Sequence record: PQ462667.1
DNA length: 64,000 nucleotides
Origin: Escherichia phage HMD-P3
Reading direction: 5' to 3' (one strand)
Shown here: positions 18,528 through 54,929 of the stretch, in pieces
Layout: each line of letters starts with the position of its first letter
Numbering within the stretch: the stretch's first letter is position 1
The notes under the pieces: model-generated
What the model was told of the DNA's origin: nothing
The model's input: the letters and a program-made list of their open reading frames with translations, nothing else
The model's database searches: none
Translations under genes and position numbers: made by a program

Positions 18528-19127
18528 TTACTCTTTGTTGTGCTCCTCGAATTGAGGTAACTGGGCTTTATTATATTGCTCAGATCGATATTTTGCCAAG
18601 ATTTCAATACGCTTATGGATTTCTTTGCTATCTAGATAGATATTTTTATTGTCTTTTACCATCTCGTCGATTTCGTCTATTGAGAAGAACGGATAGTAGA
18701 CATCTAGCATCATATCTTCTACGAACTTGTTGTAAGATTCATAGGCTTTCTTGATTTCTTGACCCTTCTCACAGAATCCGCCAGAGAACGTGTGTCCCAT
18801 TAGCGTAGCATGTGGATGTACTACCCACCCATGGCAGGATAGGAAAATTGTGCAGTAAGCAGAAGCACTAGGACCAACCAGATGCCCTATAACTGTTCCA
18901 CGGCAATTAGCAATTAAGTTAGATAACTGTGCAGCAGTATCAACATAACCACCCGGGCCATTAATCATCAGATTAATTTCGTCATCCTCATGTGCCTGCA
19001 TAAGTACCATTGATAAATCACGGTATTCATCCGGCGGGCCTAATTCTTCATCAAAGAAAAAGGTATACTCGTTAGATTGGCGAATGGAGTGAAACAGGTT
19101 AGTCTTTTCTTCTTTTTTATTAGTCAT
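18528..19127 (-). CDS. ClpP-like serine protease
   Basis: NGPGG motif and GPSAS serine-containing segment resembling ClpP. Confidence 0.5.
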   Translation of the reverse strand: MTNKKEEKTNLFHSIRQSNEYTFFFDEELGPPDEYRDLSMVLMQAHEDDEINLMINGPGGYVDTAAQLSNLIANCRGTVIGHLVGPSASAYCTIFLSCHGWVVHPHATLMGHTFSGGFCEKGQEIKKAYESYNKFVEDMMLDVYYPFFSIDEIDEMVKDNKNIYLDSKEIHKRIEILAKYRSEQYNKAQLPQFEEHNKE

Positions 19128-23968: not shown

Positions 23969-24283
23969 TTACAGATCGGGGCGTTCATCTTCGAAACAGC
24001 CTGAGCTAATTCCTTCTCCGAATCCTACAAAGCCATCAAATTCATCATTTGAGATGCCCATAATCATTGCTTCCATTTTCCTAATCTCCGAGATTTTCAT
24101 GCCTGCTTTACTATTCTTATAGTACTTGCGAGGGTTCCCACACATCCAACAAGAACAGATGCAAGGAGTAGTAGTGATAATACCTAACCGCTTAGGGCTT
24201 TCTTCATGTGGAAAGACTGTCCAGTACTTCTTGCGGTTGTTCTTCACACGTTGCCGGTGATGACGTCTTAATGCTCGATCCAC
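23969..24283 (-). CDS. Cys-rich protein
   Basis: CICSCWMCG cluster. Confidence 0.45.
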   Translation of the reverse strand: MDRALRRHHRQRVKNNRKKYWTVFPHEESPKRLGIITTTPCICSCWMCGNPRKYYKNSKAGMKISEIRKMEAMIMGISNDEFDGFVGFGEGISSGCFEDERPDL

Positions 24284-24364
24284 ACATTTCTCCTAAAACT
24301 TGGGAGATAAACGGAGTTTGCTCGACTACCTTGCGTAGCTGGGAGAAATCGTATCCAAACCCCA

Positions 24365-24733
24365 TTACATCGCCTGAGTAAATGTACGACTAATAACGTC
24401 GTTCTGTTGTTCACGAGTCAGTGCATTAAATCGAACAGCGTAGCCAGAGACACGGATGGTCAACTGAGGATATTTTTCAGGATGTTTCTGCGCATCCAAA
24501 AGCTGATCACGGCTTAACACATTGACATTTAGGTGCTGACCACCTTCGATTTGAGGGGCGACTTCCACTTTGACTTCACGGAAGGCTTCGGGATCGAATT
24601 GTGGTGTGATACCTTCTAGATCTTCAACTAGAACTTTCTGTTTAAGTTCACCATTGTCGGAGTATAGCTGAATAATCTGATTTTCATGAACAAGGTTAAT
24701 TACGCCAGATTTAAGATTTTGATATGCTTTCAT
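24365..24733 (-). CDS. grcA: autonomous glycyl-radical cofactor (GrcA/YfiD-like)
   Basis: C-terminal [29 protein letters not shown], near-identical to the E. coli YfiD glycyl-radical motif. Confidence 0.85.
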
Positions 24734-24756
24734 TAGATCTCCCCGATGTTAGAATT

Positions 24757-24832
24757 TGGTAGTTAGTAGTGGATTTGAACCACTGTAGTCGCTCCGTATG
24801 AAGGAGGTGCATAACCACTCTGCCAACTAACT
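24757..24832 (-). tRNA. tRNA, anticodon CAT (Met or Ile2)
   Basis: Hand fold: acceptor agttagt/actaact, T-loop ttcaaat, anticodon loop ttCATac, encoded CCA. Confidence 0.6.
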
Positions 24833-35546: not shown

Positions 35547-35963
35547 ATGAGTAAATATGGTTTTGTAAATAACGGACTTAATCAAAGTATGGGCTCCCAG
35601 CAGCCCATTCCAGGTCTGGATAACCCCTACTTACAACAGTTGCAACAGCGTTTAGCAGAAGCGCAACAGATGCAGCAACAACTCCAGCAAAATCCTAGAA
35701 GTGTGAGTCCTATACAAATGATGCAGCAAATGAGCGGGCAGTCGCAAATGCCTCAACAAATGCAGCAACAGATGCCGCAGCAGCAAGTTCAGCAACAAAC
35801 CCAACAACCGCAGGTTTCTGCGGAAGGACAGGCAGTACTAGCCCTTTTCGAAGACTTCGCAAAGACAGAGGATGGGAAGCAGCTTGTATCACTTATGGGT
35901 AAGTTTAATAGCTTCTGCCAAAGCCAAATTGCAAAAGCTCAAAATAGCGGTGATAACTCCTAA
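35547..35963 (+). CDS. glutamine-rich protein
   Basis: Q-rich runs (QQLQQRLAEAQQMQQQLQQ, MPQQMQQQMPQQQVQQQTQQPQ); RBS aaggggagga. Confidence 0.6.
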   Translation: MSKYGFVNNGLNQSMGSQQPIPGLDNPYLQQLQQRLAEAQQMQQQLQQNPRSVSPIQMMQQMSGQSQMPQQMQQQMPQQQVQQQTQQPQVSAEGQAVLALFEDFAKTEDGKQLVSLMGKFNSFCQSQIAKAQNSGDNS

Positions 35964-47081: not shown

Positions 47082-49412
47082 TTAAATAGTACAACCACCG
47101 GATGCACAACCGGCTGCTTCTTCTCCAGCACCTCCACCATTTGCGGTATTGAAGTTAGCATAATACCAAGTTTTCCACCCATACTTAACAGCAGTCATGA
47201 AATCACGAACTACTACTGGGCCAGGAATGATTTCATTCTCAAACTTGGTGTAGTCATAGTACATATTCGTACTGATAGACTGACTGAAGAATTTCTGCAT
47301 AGTTGCTACCCATTTGATCCACTCGATACGATCTACATCATAAGCCAGTTTATAGCTCATTAACGTTTCCCAATCGGTTGCGCCTGGAGCAATTGCAATT
47401 ACTTTATTTACTGCACTACCTTTAATAGATACAATCTTACGGGGTGGTTCGATAGAGTTAGTAACACCTAACAGAACAGAAGAACTTTCCCCTGGCATCT
47501 GAGCAGTCAGAACAGAGTTACGCATACCATATTTCAGAATATCTGCACGCAGAGACTCCCAATCCATTTCTAGACCTACGGATACCAGTTCATCAACAGT
47601 TTTCTTGTACGTGTCGATTACCAGAATTCCTTTAGATGGTTTAGTACGATCAAACCACTCACATGCACCCTGTTCTTTAGCTAGGCGTACAGAGGCTTTA
47701 TGCAGGAAGTAAGACAGTTTTTCAGCTTCACGGTGAATCCAGTTACGGGCTTCAATACCTTCATAAGCCAGACCTTCTGCCGCCATTGCACCTGCTGCGT
47801 TCATCAGGCCAATACCAACATTACGACGTTTCTTAGCCGTATATTCCATAGTTGGGAACGGATAATCCTGAATTTCAATAATTGTATCAACGAATTTCAG
47901 GAGGATGTAGCAAGTTTTTTCCCACTCAGCCAAAGATTCCATGCGCCCAAGTACAACACCACCTAAGTTACACAGAGATACTTCACCAATATCCTCCGGC
48001 TTCATTTGATCAAGCTGCTCTTTTGTCTTGTACAGCTCTGTAATGTGATGGAACGGGCGTGTAGGCTGAGTAATTTCAACACAAAGGTTTGTCATACGGA
48101 TCGGATCAAGGAAGTTACCGTGACGATTAGATTCCCCGATGTGATGAGCATACATACGTCCTGTTTCCATTCGGATACGTAGCCAAGTATCTAGGATTTC
48201 TTTTGCAGAGACTTTAGGAGCTGCTGGAACTGTTTTTCCTTCGTGGTCGATCTTTGTAAGAGATGCCACACGTTTCTCCGCTGCCACGTAGATTTCTTCA
48301 AATTTAGCCTCGTCATCACTATAAAACGCTTCATGAACTTCTGGAGCATAGAAGTATGACATTAGCGTAATATCTTCGTTTTTCAGATAACGTTTTAACA
48401 AAAGATTGTTGAAGCTCAGAGAGTAATCCATCTTATCGATTTTATTCTCATCTGTAGCACGTTGTTGCTTAACCTGCATCAATTGAATGATTTCAGGGTC
48501 GAAGTATGGATAAGACACTGTAGCAGAACCACCACGAGTTTGCTGAGTATTGGCCTTTACTGAGCGGTCAATGTGTCGATAATATGGCAGTTTTCCGGAA
48601 TGCGGGAATGCCCCATTTCGCACCGGATCAGCAATTGATCGGCTTTCAAGATGATACCCGATTCCCGCTCTGGCTGCGACCATTTTGAAGACGATGTGCT
48701 CGGCGGTGTCGATTGAATCCAACGTGTCAGTGGAATCCACGAGGCAGCAACTAGCAAATCCACGGTCACTAGAGCGCAGACCAACCAGTGGCGGCGTAGG
48801 AACGTTAATTTTGTGGAGCGACATTGCGTTGTAGAGGTCGATTGCATCTAGAATTGTCCAGTTAGGTTGAGATAGCATCGCCATTGCCATACCCATGTAG
48901 GCAAACTGCGGAGTTTCATAAATTTCACCAGTGGCTATGTTACGGCGGGAATACTTATCAAAGAACTGCTTCAGCCCACCACTAGTAAAAAGACGGTCAC
49001 GATCATGGTCGATAACCTGATTCAGAGCTTCAAATTGCTCATCGGTAATCCATGCACTCATGTCTTCCCATGCACCTACGCTAACCATATGGTCATGGAA
49101 GAAACGCAGAGAAGGCGGTTCGAAGGAATCATAAAGGCGTTTACGCATTTGCGCAAGACGTAATTCCTTTGCTGGCACATCATATGCTGGATTATCTTTG
49201 ATAAGACTTTCAGCAGCTTTAATTAATGCATCCATCAGAGTGTCGGAATCTACAACCCCTTTAGGCAGAGTTTTTTGAGCAGCCATAGTAATGGCTGACC
49301 AACTTACATCAACTGTTTTGCAACCATACTCTGCCCAACCATTGATTTTTTCAGGAGCAAAGTCTTCTACAGTACCGTCACGTTTAATTACTTTTTCAAT
49401 GCGATGGCTCAT
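47082..49412 (-). CDS. nrdA: ribonucleotide reductase class Ia large subunit
   Basis: Start moved to MSHRIEKVIKRDG (ATP-cone, RBS aaaggaaag); active-site region NLCVEI...; 776 aa. Confidence 0.9.
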   Translation of the reverse strand: MSHRIEKVIKRDGTVEDFAPEKINGWAEYGCKTVDVSWSAITMAAQKTLPKGVVDSDTLMDALIKAAESLIKDNPAYDVPAKELRLAQMRKRLYDSFEPPSLRFFHDHMVSVGAWEDMSAWITDEQFEALNQVIDHDRDRLFTSGGLKQFFDKYSRRNIATGEIYETPQFAYMGMAMAMLSQPNWTILDAIDLYNAMSLHKINVPTPPLVGLRSSDRGFASCCLVDSTDTLDSIDTAEHIVFKMVAARAGIGYHLESRSIADPVRNGAFPHSGKLPYYRHIDRSVKANTQQTRGGSATVSYPYFDPEIIQLMQVKQQRATDENKIDKMDYSLSFNNLLLKRYLKNEDITLMSYFYAPEVHEAFYSDDEAKFEEIYVAAEKRVASLTKIDHEGKTVPAAPKVSAKEILDTWLRIRMETGRMYAHHIGESNRHGNFLDPIRMTNLCVEITQPTRPFHHITELYKTKEQLDQMKPEDIGEVSLCNLGGVVLGRMESLAEWEKTCYILLKFVDTIIEIQDYPFPTMEYTAKKRRNVGIGLMNAAGAMAAEGLAYEGIEARNWIHREAEKLSYFLHKASVRLAKEQGACEWFDRTKPSKGILVIDTYKKTVDELVSVGLEMDWESLRADILKYGMRNSVLTAQMPGESSSVLLGVTNSIEPPRKIVSIKGSAVNKVIAIAPGATDWETLMSYKLAYDVDRIEWIKWVATMQKFFSQSISTNMYYDYTKFENEIIPGPVVVRDFMTAVKYGWKTWYYANFNTANGGGAGEEAAGCASGGCTI

Positions 49413-49562
49413 TTGGCTTTCCTTTTTATAGTTATCAGGATTTAAGGAATATTCTACTTTATTATCGGTCATTAGGCAAATAAAATTTTCTGATAGAAAA
49501 GGCCCGAGTATTTTCATACCCAGGCCCTATATATTACCAGTCTAGCTTTTTAGCTTATTCAA

Positions 49563-49847
49563 TTACTTTAGCTCTCTAGCTACTTCTTTTAATAGAATAT
49601 CTATGGAGGTGCTCAGCTCGTTATAATTGAATGGTTTATTTGGATTTGAGGTTACAATTTTCCACGCTAGGGTTGTCTTAGGACTTTCTTCCCCTTCCTT
49701 ACGTGTAATCATATTAGCAGCACTCAGTGAAGTACGATGTATTTTAGTTTTACGGCTCAGATGAACGACGTTTCCCATATTACACCTTCCCCATGTCTTT
49801 AAAAATATCATAGAATGCTTTAGACTCAACAGAACGAACGTTATCAA
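49563..49847 (-). CDS. hypothetical protein
   Basis: 94-aa ORF. Confidence 0.45.
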   Translation of the reverse strand: MITFVLLSLKHSMIFLKTWGRCNMGNVVHLSRKTKIHRTSLSAANMITRKEGEESPKTTLAWKIVTSNPNKPFNYNELSTSIDILLKEVARELK

Positions 49848-50541
49848 TCAATTCGATCATTGAGAATGGGGCATTTTCGTATTTCTCATAGACTTCCATA
49901 AGGAGCGCTAGACCTGAGTCACCTTTAATGTCTTTCTGAGCTATATCTCCGCAGATAATTAAACGGCAGTCTTGCCCTACACGAGTTAGGAGACAAATCA
50001 TTGCCTCAACGGAAATATTCTGAGCTTCATCGACAATTACATAGGAGTTGTTGAAAGTTCTGCCACGAGCATGTTCGATAGCCAAAAATTTAATTTTCTG
50101 ACGTTCGACATATCCTTTATATGCATGATCGCCGATGGCCCATTTCATACCATCAGCTATTGGCTCCAACCAAGGCTCTAGCTTTTCCGCTAGATCACCA
50201 GGAAGCATACCAAGAGACTTACCTAGAGGTTCATTAGGACGTACGAGGATCACTTGCTCAATATCTGAGTGAATGTCTACGAGTTCCTGAGCTGCAAGAA
50301 CGGACGGAATAAAGGTTTTACCAGTACCTGGCTCACCTATACCTACAGTCACTGTGTTGTTCTTGATCATATTGATATATGATTTTTGCTCGCGGTTTTT
50401 ACCTACTAGGGATTTAGCAACTGGGTTAGCGTAATCAGTAGAAAAATCAGCCTGAATTACGTTATTCTCATATTTGTTGCCACGCTTTCTTGAACCATTG
50501 CGGTTCTCTCTTTTTTGACGTGCTTTTCCCATAAATAACAC
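49780..50541 (-). CDS. phoH: PhoH-like ATPase
   Basis: Walker A GEPGTGKTF; PhoH-like size and layout. Confidence 0.8.
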   Translation of the reverse strand: MLFMGKARQKRENRNGSRKRGNKYENNVIQADFSTDYANPVAKSLVGKNREQKSYINMIKNNTVTVGIGEPGTGKTFIPSVLAAQELVDIHSDIEQVILVRPNEPLGKSLGMLPGDLAEKLEPWLEPIADGMKWAIGDHAYKGYVERQKIKFLAIEHARGRTFNNSYVIVDEAQNISVEAMICLLTRVGQDCRLIICGDIAQKDIKGDSGLALLMEVYEKYENAPFSMIELIDNVRSVESKAFYDIFKDMGKV

Positions 50542-50884: not shown

Positions 50885-52759
50885 ATGAATCGCAATGAAG
50901 AACTAAAGTATAAAGAAATGCAGGCGTTAATTAGAAACTGCAAAGAGATTATCGAAGGGTCAGCAGATGAAGAGCTGCTGTTTAATAATGCTAATAAACC
51001 CTCAGAACGTTTCCCTACACAAAGGGATATGCTTGCAGGTGAATTGAGTAAGTATCTGATTCTAGAAGAAATGCCAATTCAGATTCGAAATGCTCATATG
51101 ATTGGGGATATTCATTTCCATGATGCTGATTATGCTGCATTAGGCATGACTAACTGTTGTCTGGTAGCTCTGGAAGATATGCTGAAGAATGGTATGAAGG
51201 TTGGTAATGCTGAAATTAGCACTCCAAACTCTATCACTACTGCGGCGGCTATTACTGCTCAGATTATCACTCAGGTTAGCTCTCATCAGTATGGTGGTAC
51301 TTCTGTAGATCGCCTTGATGAAGTATTAGCCCCTTATGTTCGTAAATCCTATGACAAAAATCATGCGTTTGCAAAACGTTGGACTAAGGATGAAGCCAAA
51401 GCATCAGTAATGGCTACGGAGATGACTGAAAAGGAAGTCTATGATGCCTGTCAGGGTCTAGAGTATGAAATCAATACGATGTTCAACTCTAACGGTCAGA
51501 GTCCATTTATTACCTTTGGTTTTGGTCTAGGAACTTCTTGGGAAGCACGTCTAGTACAGAAAGCAATACTGAAAGTACGCATGGATGGTTTAGGTATCAA
51601 TAAACGTACAGCTATCTTCCCGAAACTGGTATTTGTACTTCGTGATGGAGTAAATATGAAACCAGGAGATGTTAATTATGACATCAAGAAGTTAGCTATG
51701 AAATGTACTGCTGAACGTATGTATCCAGACTATATCAGCTATGATAAGGTTGTGGAAGTTACTGGGGACTACAAAGTTTCTATGGGTTGTCGTTCATTCC
51801 TAGCTGCTACAGAAGATGGTGAAACTGCCGGTCGTAATAACTTAGGTGTTGTTTCTGTAAACTTGCCTAGAATTGCTATCGAAGCTGAAGGAAATATTGA
51901 CCTATTCTTTGATTTGCTTGAGCTACGTGTAGATACAGCGTTAAAAGCGTTGGAGTGGAGAGTTGATCGCTTAAAATACATTCAAGCTAAAGCTGCACCC
52001 ATCCTGTATATGTCAGGAGCCTTTGGACTGCGCTTGGAGCCTGATGAATATGTATTCGATCATTTCTATAACCGTGCTTCTGTATCTCTAGGGTATATTG
52101 GTTGCCATGAAATGCTACAGTTTATGTTTGGCAAAGATGTAGACACAATGTCCGAGACCTGCATCAAGTTTGTTCAGCGTGTATTGCAGTACATGCGGGA
52201 TAGAGTCGATCAGAAGAAGGAAGAAACTAAATTAGGTTATAGCCTGTATGCTACACCATCAGAATCCCTATGTGACCGTTTTTGTCGTCTAGACCGTGAA
52301 TATTTCCCAGAGCATGAAGATATTCTGTCCAAAGGATACTACACTAACTCGCACCACCTTGATGTAGAACGTAAAGTTGCTCCCAATGTGAAATTTGATT
52401 ATGAATCTAACTTTACTCCGATTGCTTCTGGTGGGTGCATTTCCTATGTAGAACTACCGGATATGAAACGATTCCCAGATGCACTGGAATGGGTTATTAA
52501 TTATGCTGCTAGTAAGGTTCATTACTTCGGTATTAATACCCCAGTGGATTCTTGTGGTAAATGTGGATTCTTAGGTGAAACAATAGCATCCGAAGATGGA
52601 TTTAAGTGCCCTATCTGTGGTAATCATGACCCCGAAACTCTTGAAGTAACTCGTCGAGTTTGTGGGTATCTTGGAAATCCGGGTGCTCGTCCATTTAACC
52701 CCGGCAAACAGCACGAGGTGATGGGCAGAGTGAAGCATCAGGATATTCGAGCTAAGTAA
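50885..52759 (+). CDS. nrdD: anaerobic ribonucleoside-triphosphate reductase (class III)
   Basis: C-terminal glycyl-radical motif RVCGYLG and Zn ribbon CGKCGF...CPICG. Confidence 0.9.
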   Translation: MNRNEELKYKEMQALIRNCKEIIEGSADEELLFNNANKPSERFPTQRDMLAGELSKYLILEEMPIQIRNAHMIGDIHFHDADYAALGMTNCCLVALEDMLKNGMKVGNAEISTPNSITTAAAITAQIITQVSSHQYGGTSVDRLDEVLAPYVRKSYDKNHAFAKRWTKDEAKASVMATEMTEKEVYDACQGLEYEINTMFNSNGQSPFITFGFGLGTSWEARLVQKAILKVRMDGLGINKRTAIFPKLVFVLRDGVNMKPGDVNYDIKKLAMKCTAERMYPDYISYDKVVEVTGDYKVSMGCRSFLAATEDGETAGRNNLGVVSVNLPRIAIEAEGNIDLFFDLLELRVDTALKALEWRVDRLKYIQAKAAPILYMSGAFGLRLEPDEYVFDHFYNRASVSLGYIGCHEMLQFMFGKDVDTMSETCIKFVQRVLQYMRDRVDQKKEETKLGYSLYATPSESLCDRFCRLDREYFPEHEDILSKGYYTNSHHLDVERKVAPNVKFDYESNFTPIASGGCISYVELPDMKRFPDALEWVINYAASKVHYFGINTPVDSCGKCGFLGETIASEDGFKCPICGNHDPETLEVTRRVCGYLGNPGARPFNPGKQHEVMGRVKHQDIRAK

Positions 52760-53438: not shown

Positions 53439-53628
53439 GGGTTTAAACGCCGCTTTGGAAAACGCATTAATGCAGCGCTGGGAAACTGGCTATAAGGATG
53501 GTGTTGAATCCTGCGCTACTATGCTAGAAGTTATTGCTAATACCTTAATGGAGAAAGGCAATAAAGAATTAGCTGAGCTATTAGACAGTATTGGGCAAAA
53601 CTTCAGAGAACAGGTGAAAAATGCGTAG
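53407..53628 (+). CDS. hypothetical protein
   Basis: 73-aa ORF. Confidence 0.45.
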   Translation: MAFSKPMLPDKGLNAALENALMQRWETGYKDGVESCATMLEVIANTLMEKGNKELAELLDSIGQNFREQVKNA

Positions 53629-54436
53629 ATTAATTATTATTAGTGGTGCAGGTTTGAGTGTTGAAAGTGGTGTACGAGCTTTTCGTACTGATACTGCTAG
53701 CGGTAAAGCATTGTGGGATGATTATGATCTAGAAGAAGTATGTAATATTCATGCCTTTCGCGGTAATTTTTATCATAAAACCCATATGTTTTACAACAAG
53801 CGTCGTGAAGAACTAAAAACTGTTGAACCCAATCTTGCGCATTTGCGTATTGGTGAATGGTATAAACAATATCCAGGTCAAATAGTAAACTTGACTACCA
53901 ATGTTGATGACCTTATTGAGCGTGCTGGCGTTCCACATAGTGACATTCTGCACATTCACGGATATTTAAAAGAGGTTGTTGTAGCTGATAACTACAATAG
54001 TAGCAATAAACGGATTATTGATGTAGGATACAATTCTATTGATCCAGATGATTATAAATGGGTTAAACCTAATGTAATCTTCTTTGGAGAGCATGCTCCA
54101 GCATATGCGGAGATGTACAATGTTTTTGATGGTATTACCAGTCAAGATATGATCATTGTGGTTGGTTGCTCCAACCAAGTAATTAACTTCTACTGGGAAT
54201 TATTTCCTGTTCTTAATTTGACTGCTGCTAAGCTAATGGTTGTTAACTACTATGATAGTGCCCTAGCGGTGGAACCGGGCTATCAAGGTATGACTCGTAG
54301 TGAGATGTATCAACTGGAAGAACGTGGTATCCCTTACTGGAGTAAAGGTGCGGTAGATGCTTTCAGTGATCCTGATTTTATTGCTCGTGTAGAAGCTCAT
54401 TTAGGGGGTAGACCTTATGTATCAGGAACTAAGTAA
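53621..54436 (+). CDS. Sir2-family NAD-dependent deacylase-like protein
   Basis: IISGAGLSVESGVRAFR (sirtuin Rossmann motif), NVDDL, IFFGE. Confidence 0.7.
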   Translation: MRRLIIISGAGLSVESGVRAFRTDTASGKALWDDYDLEEVCNIHAFRGNFYHKTHMFYNKRREELKTVEPNLAHLRIGEWYKQYPGQIVNLTTNVDDLIERAGVPHSDILHIHGYLKEVVVADNYNSSNKRIIDVGYNSIDPDDYKWVKPNVIFFGEHAPAYAEMYNVFDGITSQDMIIVVGCSNQVINFYWELFPVLNLTAAKLMVVNYYDSALAVEPGYQGMTRSEMYQLEERGIPYWSKGAVDAFSDPDFIARVEAHLGGRPYVSGTK

Positions 54437-54929
54437 TACTCCAATTATTTTTCTAGACATTGATGGGGTGCTCAATTCGAGCATCTCCCACCATCATGCA
54501 CCTGATAATGAAAAGATTTTCTTTGGAAGTGACTGGGTTTTCAAACCGCTTCTCAAGGCTTTTCAGGACTTTATTCGTCCTTCTCCAATAATGATTGTTG
54601 GAGTATCATCTTGGTTCTCTGTCAGAAATGAGATGGAGAACGTTCAGATTATGACCGGATTAGGTCTTATCGATCGCTTTCTTGGTACAACGGATTTTAC
54701 TGGTGGTGGATTATCTAGGGGTAATTCTGTTCTTCGTTTCGTCGAAAAGCATAAGCTCAAACATTGGTGTGTACTTGATGATGCGGGTGCTATGATGTAT
54801 CAGTATCCAACGGTTATAGTCAACGGTAGAACTGGGATAAATCTTCAAGATTTAAAAGCTGTTAGCTATATGCTAGAATTTAGCCCAGATCTTGAAATGT
54901 GTAAATCCTTACAACAATTTAAGGTGTAA
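54417..54929 (+). CDS. HAD-superfamily phosphatase-like protein
   Basis: N-terminal IIFLDIDGVLN (HAD motif I). Confidence 0.5.
   Translation: MYQELSNTPIIFLDIDGVLNSSISHHHAPDNEKIFFGSDWVFKPLLKAFQDFIRPSPIMIVGVSSWFSVRNEMENVQIMTGLGLIDRFLGTTDFTGGGLSRGNSVLRFVEKHKLKHWCVLDDAGAMMYQYPTVIVNGRTGINLQDLKAVSYMLEFSPDLEMCKSLQQFKV

What the first reader, a model, noticed from the sequence alone, without database searches (positions are those of the whole stretch)
24365..24733. Phage GrcA/YfiD-like glycyl-radical spare part alongside nrdD, with no NrdG activase visible
ORF 24365..24733 ends in the near-exact GrcA/YfiD glycyl-radical motif ([13 protein letters not shown]). The window also encodes class III anaerobic RNR NrdD (50885..52759, RVCGYLG). 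None of the ORFs in the window shows the CxxxCxxC radical-SAM signature expected for NrdG. The phage may therefore rely on host activases and carries both a glycyl-radical enzyme and a repair module for oxygen-damaged glycyl-radical enzymes.
Basis: partly seen in the sequence, partly recalled or inferred. Interest (0 to 1): 0.6.

Follow-up and report, generated by a model that had tools for sequence, protein, structure and literature searches.

The report
T5-type phage GrcA spare part
This T5-like phage carries a small, intact copy of the "spare part" protein that repairs oxygen-damaged pyruvate formate-lyase, plus an anaerobic ribonucleotide reductase but no activating enzyme of its own; both facts are real but already known for T4 and T5-type phages.

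Summary
On the minus strand, 24733->24365 encodes a 122-aa protein whose C-terminal 61 residues are 80% identical to E. coli PflB 700-760 and 74% to GrcA/YfiD. NrdD at 50885-52759 is genuine. No radical-SAM activase exists in the window or in the rest of the closest relative's genome.

The window is a T5-like phage (Demerecviridae, Tequintavirus). The exact protein is on 269 public contigs, and about 435 T5-like phage records carry it intact. It is under purifying selection (dN/dS 0.015-0.16).

The kind is already known:
- The T4 homologue Y06I was shown in 2001 to be activated by E. coli PFL-activase and to rescue oxygen-cleaved PFL.
- Dwivedi et al. 2013 reported that many phages carry nrdD plus nrdAB without nrdG, and discussed the RNR region of T5, SPC35 and EPS7.

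One correction: the spare part is PFL-type. It fits the host's PflB, not the phage's NrdD.

One addition: phage grcA co-occurs with nrdD in every lineage checked. It sits inside the class III RNR gene cluster in three unrelated lineages (nrdD-nrdG-grcA, nrdD-grcA, and nrdD..grcA..nrdG). This suggests the phage keeps host PFL alive to supply formate, the reductant of this type of NrdD. That link is inferred, not shown.

The parts
24365..24733 (-). grcA-like gene (122 aa): T5-type autonomous glycyl-radical cofactor. Residues ~56-122 are the PFL-type glycyl-radical domain; residues 1-55 are a diverged N-terminal half.
   Evidence: ORF and translation. Pfam Gly_radical 3.7e-18. phrog_1209 matched full length at 8e-48. 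80% identity to PflB 700-760 and 74% to GrcA 54-127. PDB 6OWR 1.4e-30. dN/dS 0.015-0.16.
24416..24454 (-). Glycyl-radical motif [13 protein letters not shown] (residues 94-106); the radical glycine G97 is the codon at 24443-24445.
   Evidence: Sequence read directly. These columns are invariant in the alignment with E. coli GrcA, PflB and T4-type Vs.6.
24739..24744 (-). Shine-Dalgarno sequence GGGGAG, 5 nt upstream of the ATG.
   Evidence: Sequence read directly.
24757..24832 (-). tRNA-Met, the last gene of the 22-tRNA cluster, immediately upstream. grcA is probably co-transcribed with it; no promoter-like site above chance lies between them.
   Evidence: ARAGORN; promoter and terminator scan at chance level.
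50885..52759 (+). nrdD: class III anaerobic ribonucleotide reductase (624 aa). It has no ATP-cone. It carries a Zn ribbon (CGKCG...CPICG) and the glycyl-radical motif RRVCGYLG (G594, nt 52664-52666). No nrdG follows it.
   Evidence: Pfam NRDD 2.7e-172. NCBIfam NF006732 844 bits. 54% identity to E. coli NrdD from its residue ~113 onward. Alignment with E. coli and T4-type NrdD. The downstream ORFs have no Pfam family and only unknown-function PHROGs.
47082..50541 (-). Context genes: nrdA (47082-49517) and phoH (49780-50541), divergent from nrdD. This is the nrdBA-phoH-nrdD layout typical of T5, SPC35 and EPS7.
   Evidence: ORFs. Pfam PhoH 3.3e-61. S124 annotation. Dwivedi 2013.

Best explanation
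The gene encodes the T5-type version of the phage/bacterial 'spare part' protein GrcA (YfiD in E. coli, Y06I/Vs.6 in T4).

Proposed mechanism:
1. The gene lies at the end of the tRNA cluster and is expressed from there.
2. When oxygen cleaves the host's pyruvate formate-lyase (PflB) at Gly734, the phage protein's structured C-terminal half (residues ~56-122) docks into the damaged enzyme. This half is a near copy of PflB 693-759.
3. The host's own activase PflA then installs a new glycyl radical on G97, and PFL activity returns.

The phage encodes no activase, so both this protein and the phage's NrdD must be activated by host enzymes: PflA for GrcA and NrdG for NrdD.

Likely benefit: T5 shuts down host gene expression, so the host cannot renew its own GrcA. 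The phage copy keeps fermentative acetyl-CoA/ATP and formate production going during microaerobic infection. Formate is also the reductant used by E. coli/T4-type NrdD, so the two phage genes would form one anaerobic dNTP-supply module.

Shown here: gene integrity, domain identity, purifying selection, absence of an activase, and synteny of grcA with nrdD/nrdG in other phages.
Shown by others for the T4 homologue: activation by PFL-AE and rescue of cleaved PFL.
Inferred: that the T5-type protein does the same, that host NrdG activates T5 NrdD, and the formate coupling.
For: Identity and integrity of the gene:
- The C-terminal 61 aa are 80% identical to PflB 700-760 and 74% to GrcA. The RVSGYAV loop is invariant.
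- The protein is homologous over its full length (52.7%, including the MKAYQ start) to T4-type Vs.6. It falls in one phage family, phrog_1209.
- T4 Y06I is activated by PFL-AE and restores oxygen-cleaved PFL (Wagner 2001, as summarised in PMC8683613).
- YfiD 61-127 has the fold of PFL 693-759. YfiD 1-60 is disordered and aids binding rather than catalysis, which explains why the N-terminal half can diverge.
- Purifying selection: dN/dS 0.015-0.16. About 435 T5-like records carry it full length at >=80% identity. The exact sequence is on 269 contigs.

No activase:
- A 5-sequence NrdG HMM, which still finds E. coli PflA at 1.5e-15, scored at best E=0.07 against 960 six-frame segments of the window plus the rest of the S124 genome. 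PflA phmmer scored at best 0.22.
- tblastn scored at best E=5.4.
- No activase is annotated in S124.
- Dwivedi 2013 reports that many phages have only nrdD plus nrdAB.

Link to NrdD:
- grcA and nrdD co-occur in Markadamsvirinae, Priunavirus, Ermolyevavirinae, Tevenvirinae and Grimontviridae.
- grcA is inside the RNR cluster in a 235-kb T4-like contig (nrdD-nrdG-grcA).
- The same holds in RaK2-like jumbo phages (nrdD-x-x-grcA-x-nrdG).
- The same holds in Aeromonas phage BUCT695 (nrdD-grcA, 10 nt apart).
- Formate is the reductant of the studied class III RNRs and the product of PFL (PMC4390871).
- The window NrdD shares the M-G-C, bottom-Cys and Asn active-site columns with the E. coli and T4-type enzymes.
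Against: - No experiment exists on the T5-type protein.
- Its N-terminal half, the part that in YfiD promotes binding to cleaved PFL, is the most diverged of all phage versions. The NCBIfam GrcA equivalog matches only residues 50-122 and scores 121 bits, below the 170-bit cutoff.
- The activase screen for the unseen part of the genome used a relative (S124), not this phage's own sequence.
- The formate coupling rests on gene neighbourhood and genome co-occurrence in a handful of lineages. In T5-like phages themselves, grcA and nrdD are 26 kb apart.
- One metagenomic grcA clade (L094-L099) shows no NrdD motif within 10 kb.
- Many nrdD/nrdG phages lack grcA: 2282 records hold NrdG against 1585 with GrcA.
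Confidence: 0.72

Rival explanations
1. The GrcA-like protein serves the phage's own class III RNR directly. It would act as a spare glycyl-radical domain for oxygen-cleaved NrdD, or as a substrate or radical store for NrdG, rather than serving PFL.
For: grcA lies inside or next to nrdD/nrdG clusters in three unrelated phage lineages, in BUCT695 in the slot nrdG usually occupies. PMC8683613 notes that spare parts for other glycyl-radical enzymes are conceivable.
Against: The structured half is 80% identical to PflB and has no detectable similarity to the phage NrdD C-terminus beyond G-Y (blastp found nothing at E<=10). NrdD's radical domain includes a Zn ribbon that GrcA lacks. The T4 homologue works with PFL and PFL-AE.
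Confidence: 0.05
2. The protein is a decoy or inhibitor. It would soak up host PflA, or occupy PFL without restoring activity, to redirect pyruvate or SAM metabolism for the phage.
For: The N-terminal half, which in YfiD supports productive binding to cleaved PFL, is strongly diverged in the T5 type. The GrcA equivalog score is below its cutoff.
Against: All residues of the radical loop and the C-terminal helix are conserved under strong purifying selection. That is what a functional catalytic module needs, not a decoy. Truncated YfiD lacking residues 1-60 still gives full catalytic activity. T4 Y06I restores PFL activity.
Confidence: 0.08
3. The phage does have its own activase, unrecognised: either the small Cys-rich ORF next to grcA (24283-23969, CICSCWMC) or a gene in the unseen part of this genome.
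For: The ORF directly downstream of grcA carries the only CxxxCxxC in any real ORF of the whole genome. The Vibrio-infecting Demerecviridae phage KIT04 does encode NrdG.
Against: That ORF is only 104 aa, has no Pfam or radical-SAM match, and occurs only in T5-like phages. The first Cys of its triad is not invariant, and the conserved pattern RRHHR...TPCxCSCxMCxxPRK looks like a small basic Zn-binding protein. No homologue lies next to T4-type vs.6. The HMM and motif screens of the rest of the S124 genome were negative.
Confidence: 0.03
4. The ORF is a decaying fragment of a captured pflB/grcA gene with no function.
For: It lies in the variable tRNA region, where neighbouring small ORFs come and go. 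Relatives have 250-394 bp more sequence between grcA and the tRNAs.
Against: dN/dS is 0.015-0.16. The gene is full length in about 435 T5-like and about 1000 T4-like records. It has a strong Shine-Dalgarno sequence. It is conserved across four Demerecviridae/Straboviridae groups.
Confidence: 0.02

Closest known systems
Bacteriophage T4 Y06I (gene vs.6), autonomous glycyl radical cofactor (Wagner et al. 2001, BBRC 285:456)
   Same: Both are phage-encoded and about 120 aa. The T4-type Vs.6 of RB14 is 52.7% identical over the full length, including the MKAYQ N-terminus, and belongs to the same PHROG (phrog_1209). The radical loop [10 protein letters not shown] is identical. No pflA is found in the phage. 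That Y06I and vs.6 are the same gene rests on my own knowledge plus the fact that T4-like genomes hold a single GrcA-like ORF.
   Different: The T4-type C-terminal 60 residues are identical to E. coli GrcA. The T5-type mixes PflB-like (LLDA, TQAM) and GrcA-like (KHPEKYP) residues, and its N-terminal half is more diverged. T4 also carries its own nrdG; T5-like phages do not.
E. coli GrcA/YfiD (PDB 6OWR), spare part for oxygen-cleaved pyruvate formate-lyase
   Same: Same size class. 74% identity over residues 51-122 against 54-127. It matches the structured half that has the fold of PFL 693-759.
   Different: Residues 1-50 do not match the bacterial GrcA model. TIGR04365 scores 121 bits against a cutoff of 170, whereas E. 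coli GrcA scores 234. The gene is encoded by a virulent phage within a tRNA cluster.
Orphan nrdD in T5, SPC35 and EPS7-type phages (Dwivedi et al. 2013, PMC3653736)
   Same: The same nrdBA-phoH-nrdD layout. The paper states that many phages contain only nrdD along with nrdAB.
   Different: Nothing material; this window is another genome of that group. As far as the passages I read show, that paper does not discuss grcA.
Phage class III RNR operons nrdD-nrdG (T4, ICP1, phage 65)
   Same: The NrdD here is 51-54% identical to T4-type and E. coli NrdD, with the same active-site and Zn-ribbon columns.
   Different: The activase partner is missing here. In phage-65-like, RaK2-like and BUCT695 genomes, grcA is part of the cluster. 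Here it is 26 kb away.

Membership tests
Autonomous glycyl radical cofactor (GrcA/YfiD/Y06I spare-part proteins) | Small stand-alone protein (~80-130 aa) consisting essentially of a C-terminal glycyl-radical domain | tested here: met
   122 aa. Pfam Gly_radical is the only domain, at residues 62-103, 3.7e-18.
Autonomous glycyl radical cofactor (GrcA/YfiD/Y06I spare-part proteins) | PFL-type radical loop RVSGYAV and close identity to PflB residues ~693-759, the part lost after oxygen cleavage | tested here: met
   [10 protein letters not shown] is invariant. 80% identity to PflB 700-760.
Autonomous glycyl radical cofactor (GrcA/YfiD/Y06I spare-part proteins) | Scores above the curated cutoff of the NCBIfam equivalog TIGR04365 (spare_glycyl) | tested here: not met
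   121 bits against a cutoff of 170; only residues 50-122 match. The T4-type Vs.6, whose T4 member was experimentally validated, also fails (155.7 bits), so the model is tuned to bacterial GrcA.
Autonomous glycyl radical cofactor (GrcA/YfiD/Y06I spare-part proteins) | Glycyl radical installed by PFL-activating enzyme, and restoration of activity to oxygen-cleaved PFL | not testable with these tools
   Shown for E. coli YfiD and T4 Y06I only (PMC8683613).
Phage GrcA family (phrog_1209 / T4 Vs.6-like) | Full-length match to the phage family profile, including the N-terminal half | tested here: met
   phrog_1209 at 8e-48, residues 1-122 against profile positions 1-121. tblastn matches T4-like vs.6 full length at 52.7%.
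Class III ribonucleotide reductase system (NrdD + NrdG) | NrdD catalytic subunit with C-terminal glycyl-radical motif and Zn ribbon | tested here: met
   NF006732 844 bits against 657; TIGR02487 589 against 326; RRVCGYLG and four Zn-ribbon Cys aligned.
Class III ribonucleotide reductase system (NrdD + NrdG) | Cognate radical-SAM activase NrdG (GCxxxCxGCxN) encoded with it | tested here: not met
   None in the window or in the rest of the S124 genome: HMM best E=0.07, and no motif in a plausible ORF. The system is incomplete in the phage and must borrow host NrdG.
Formate-dependent NrdD (E. coli/T4 type) | Active-site columns shared with the formate-using enzymes: Met-Gly-Cys (E. coli M382/C384), bottom-face Cys, Asn | tested here: inconclusive
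   M300-G301-C302, C91 and N318/N319 are invariant with E. coli and T4-type NrdD. I could not read the paper that defines the subtype markers (Wei 2014 is not held), so the assignment rests on similarity to the two formate-using enzymes.

The most novel reading that the evidence does not exclude
Phage grcA is a working part of the phage's anaerobic dNTP module rather than a stray host-metabolism gene. Phages repair host PFL specifically to keep formate flowing to their formate-dependent NrdD. This would explain why grcA travels with nrdD in every lineage checked and sits inside nrdD/nrdG operons in three of them. The extreme version, that GrcA is handled by NrdG or docks onto NrdD itself, is not excluded, but I put it at about 0.05.
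Probability: 0.4. Interest if true: 0.5.

Novelty: already known. Interest (0 to 1): 0.25.

Why it matters
It gives a tidy example of a virulent phage carrying only the consumable parts of two oxygen-sensitive radical enzymes while borrowing the host's activases. If the formate coupling holds, it would explain a 25-year-old oddity: why T4 and T5 bother to repair a host fermentation enzyme. It would also matter for phage performance in the low-oxygen gut, where these Salmonella and E. coli phages are used therapeutically. As it stands, the finding adds no new kind of gene or system.

Tried and rejected
1. NrdD tail as a marker of host-NrdG dependence. The 42-residue glycyl-radical tail of the window NrdD is 71% identical to E. 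coli's, against 52% for the rest of the protein, and T4-type is only 50%. More phages showed no separation. Without nrdG: PSTCR5 67%, BUCT695 64%. With nrdG: KIT04 69%, phage-65-like 62%, RaK2-like 55%. Dropped.

2. The Cys-rich ORF downstream of grcA as a mini-activase. Rejected.

3. A second CxxxCxxC hit at 35752-35630. It is a start-less segment antisense to a Gln-rich ORF, so an artefact.

4. A radical-SAM ORF two genes upstream of grcA in metagenomic locus L095. It is QueE-like, not a glycyl-radical activase.

5. Promoter and terminator scan around grcA. Counts were at chance level.

6. Literature. No paper in the searchable library treats T5-type GrcA or links phage grcA with nrdD. Wei et al. 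2014 is not held.

7. Large-scale co-occurrence of grcA and nrdD. This could not be computed. Search outputs list at most 60 records, and most fetched loci were not exported to the Python sandbox. Motif searches across loci were used instead.

8. Structure prediction was not run. 74-80% identity to solved structures already fixes the fold of the C-terminal half.

Full report
**What the window is**

DNA searches place the window in the T5-like phages (Demerecviridae, Markadamsvirinae, Tequintavirus/Epseptimavirus).
- The grcA region matches 442 phage records at 80-99% identity.
- The nrdD region matches 454 records.
- The first 25 kb is 96.5% identical to Salmonella phage vB_SenS_S124. Window position 1 corresponds to position 2848 of phage SPC35, inside the left terminal repeat.
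- The window holds 22 tRNA genes on the minus strand, nrdA, phoH and nrdD.

**The observation**

The ORF is on the minus strand, from ATG at 24733 to the stop at 24367-24365, and encodes 122 aa. The plus-strand reading is full of stops.
- A GGGGAG Shine-Dalgarno sequence lies 5 nt upstream. The gene follows tRNA-Met by 23 nt.
- Its only Pfam domain is Gly_radical, at 3.7e-18.
- The last 61 residues are 80% identical to E. coli PflB 700-760. Residues 51-122 are 74% identical to E. coli GrcA 54-127. The best solved-structure match is YfiD, PDB 6OWR, at 1.4e-30.
- NrdD at 50885-52759 is genuine: Pfam NRDD 2.7e-172, NCBIfam NF006732 844 bits, and 54% identity to E. coli NrdD without the N-terminal ATP-cone.

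**Is it a live gene?**

Yes.
- tblastn finds GrcA-like ORFs in 1585 phage records, 1418 of them covering at least 80% of the query. About 435 of the records are T5-like at >=80% identity.
- The exact protein is on 269 public contigs. It is named variously 'acetyltransferase-like protein', 'pyruvate formate-lyase', '2-ketobutyrate formate-lyase' and 'autonomous glycyl radical cofactor'.
- Pairwise dN/dS against slur09 and PHZ191 is 0.015-0.16.

**No activase**

In the window, the only CxxxCxxC-type motifs fall in spurious frames or in one small ORF. Together with the window, this covers a complete T5-like genome.
- A 5-sequence NrdG profile (E. coli, T4-type, Felix-O1-type, ICP1, Fusobacterium phage) still detects E. 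coli PflA at 1.5e-15.
- Against all 960 six-frame segments of at least 40 aa, that profile scored at best E=0.07. PflA phmmer scored at best 0.22, and tblastn at best 5.4.
- S124's annotation lists no activase.
- NrdG is common in other phages, at 2282 records. None of 60 rows sampled evenly down the ranking is an enterobacterial T5-like phage.
- Dwivedi et al. 2013 state that many phages contain only nrdD together with nrdAB. [quoted passage not shown]
- The lack is lineage-specific. Vibrio phage KIT04 (Demerecviridae, Ermolyevavirinae) has GrcA, NrdD, NrdAB and NrdG. Providencia phage PSTCR5 (Priunavirus) has the T5 layout: in the region read, nothing downstream of nrdD is annotated as nrdG.

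**The only real-ORF CxxxCxxC**

It lies in the 104-aa ORF directly downstream of grcA (24283-23969, CICSCWMC). This is not an activase.
- It has no Pfam match.
- Its family is confined to T5-like phages (T5.055/ORF053).
- The conserved pattern is RAxRRHHRxR...TPCxCSCxMCxxPRK, and the first Cys of the triad is not invariant.
- No homologue lies next to T4-type vs.6.

The other motif hit (35752-35630) is a start-less antisense artefact.

**What the protein works like**

Wagner et al. 2001, as summarised by Andorfer et al. 2021, showed that E. coli YfiD and T4 Y06I are activated by PFL-activating enzyme and restore activity to oxygen-cleaved PFL.
- YfiD residues 61-127 have the fold of PFL 693-759.
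- YfiD residues 1-60 are disordered. They help binding and radical installation but are not needed for catalysis.

The window protein matches T4-type Vs.6 over its full length (52.7%, shared MKAYQ start) and matches phrog_1209 end to end. Its structured half is PFL-like. It has no detectable similarity to the phage's own NrdD tail. The target is therefore host PFL, not NrdD.

By NCBI's bacterial GrcA equivalog it falls below the cutoff, at 121 against 170 bits, matching only residues 50-122. The T4-type protein also falls below, at 155.7 bits. The phage proteins form their own subfamily.

**Added observation: grcA travels with class III RNR genes**

Every grcA-positive phage lineage I opened also has nrdD:
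- T4-like phages.
- Markadamsvirinae (this window).
- Priunavirus.
- Ermolyevavirinae.
- Grimontviridae.

In three unrelated lineages, grcA is inside the RNR cluster:
- A 235,229-bp T4-like contig has nrdB-nrdD-nrdG-grcA with overlapping or 2-nt junctions.
- RaK2-like jumbo phages have nrdD, two ORFs, grcA, one ORF, nrdG.
- Aeromonas phage BUCT695 has grcA 10 nt after nrdD.

Motif scans across the 99 fetched loci recovered nearly all known NrdD and NrdG controls. The Gly-radical motif missed only the RaK2-like NrdDs, the second NrdD motif missed KIT04's, and the NrdG motif missed two NrdGs that ORF reading or tblastn had identified. Together the scans found the adjacent cases among 79 IMG/VR loci.

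Formate, the product of PFL, is the reductant of the studied class III RNRs, and this metabolic connection is noted in PMC4390871. The window NrdD shares the active-site columns of the formate-using E. coli and T4-type enzymes.

The simplest reading is that phage GrcA protects the formate (and acetyl-CoA/ATP) supply on which phage NrdD depends. This is inference. I found no paper making the link. In T5-like genomes the two genes are 26 kb apart.

**Why a phage copy at all**

From established T5 and T4 biology (my own knowledge, not tested here), these phages shut off host gene expression and degrade host DNA. A consumable protein such as GrcA cannot then be renewed by the host, whereas pre-existing catalytic activases (PflA, NrdG) can be reused.

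**Verdict**

The sequence observation is confirmed.

The feature is already known in kind and is annotated in public records. The added value is modest:
- A whole-genome negative for activases.
- The correction of the target to host PFL.
- The grcA-nrdD(G) synteny, which suggests a formate-coupled anaerobic dNTP module.

Noticed in passing
window 23969-24283 (-): A 104-aa ORF lies directly downstream of grcA (T5.055/ORF053 family, found only in T5-like phages, no Pfam). It has a very basic N-terminus and an invariant TPCxCSCxMCxxPRK cysteine cluster, and is probably a small Zn-binding nucleic-acid-binding protein. It holds the only CxxxCxxC in a real ORF of the genome.
   Followed up: yes
window 24204-24365 (-): A 53-aa ORF has an ATG that overlaps the grcA stop codon (TAATG). 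Its first ~26 residues match the N-terminal extension of the 121-aa homologue of the Cys-rich ORF in Yersinia phage phiR2-01 (P0075). In this window the two parts are in different frames, so either a lineage-specific frameshift occurred or these are two separate small genes.
   Followed up: partly
window 24733-24757, versus L001 5121-5315 (slur09) and S124 18584-18778: Relatives carry an extra 195-nt ORF (250-394 bp more DNA) between tRNA-Met and grcA. It is absent here, so grcA directly abuts the tRNA. The tRNA region is an indel hotspot.
   Followed up: partly
window 53621-54929 (+): Downstream of nrdD lie a Sir2-family protein (271 aa, Pfam SIR2 2.3e-24) and a HAD_SAK_2 domain protein (170 aa, 7.6e-20). 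This looks like an NAD/RNA-repair pair, and its role in T5-like phages was not examined.
   Followed up: no
L052 7026-11197; L080 6497-10351; L020 17757-20234: grcA is embedded in class III RNR gene clusters of RaK2-like jumbo phages, a 235-kb phage-65-like contig and Aeromonas phage BUCT695. The RaK2-like NrdD has RVSGYLS instead of RVCGYLG at the radical site.
   Followed up: yes
L019 11974-12456 (-) (Vibrio phage KIT04): A Vibrio-infecting member of the Demerecviridae keeps nrdG next to nrdAB and nrdD, whereas the enterobacterial T5-like and Providencia members lack it. The activase was therefore lost, or never gained, in a lineage-specific way.
   Followed up: partly
L095 8387-9220 (+): In a metagenomic grcA clade (L094-L099, ~50% identity to the window protein), a QueE-like radical-SAM gene lies two genes upstream of grcA. 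The matches to QueE models are weak and well below their cutoffs.
   Followed up: partly
window 35547-35963 (+): A glutamine-rich 138-aa ORF (long QQ/MQQ runs). Its antisense strand gives a spurious 41-aa segment with many cysteines.
   Followed up: partly
L018 595-1116 (-) (Providencia phage PSTCR5): The GrcA-like protein of this Priunavirus is 173 aa. It has a longer, unrelated N-terminal extension ahead of the same glycyl-radical domain.
   Followed up: no
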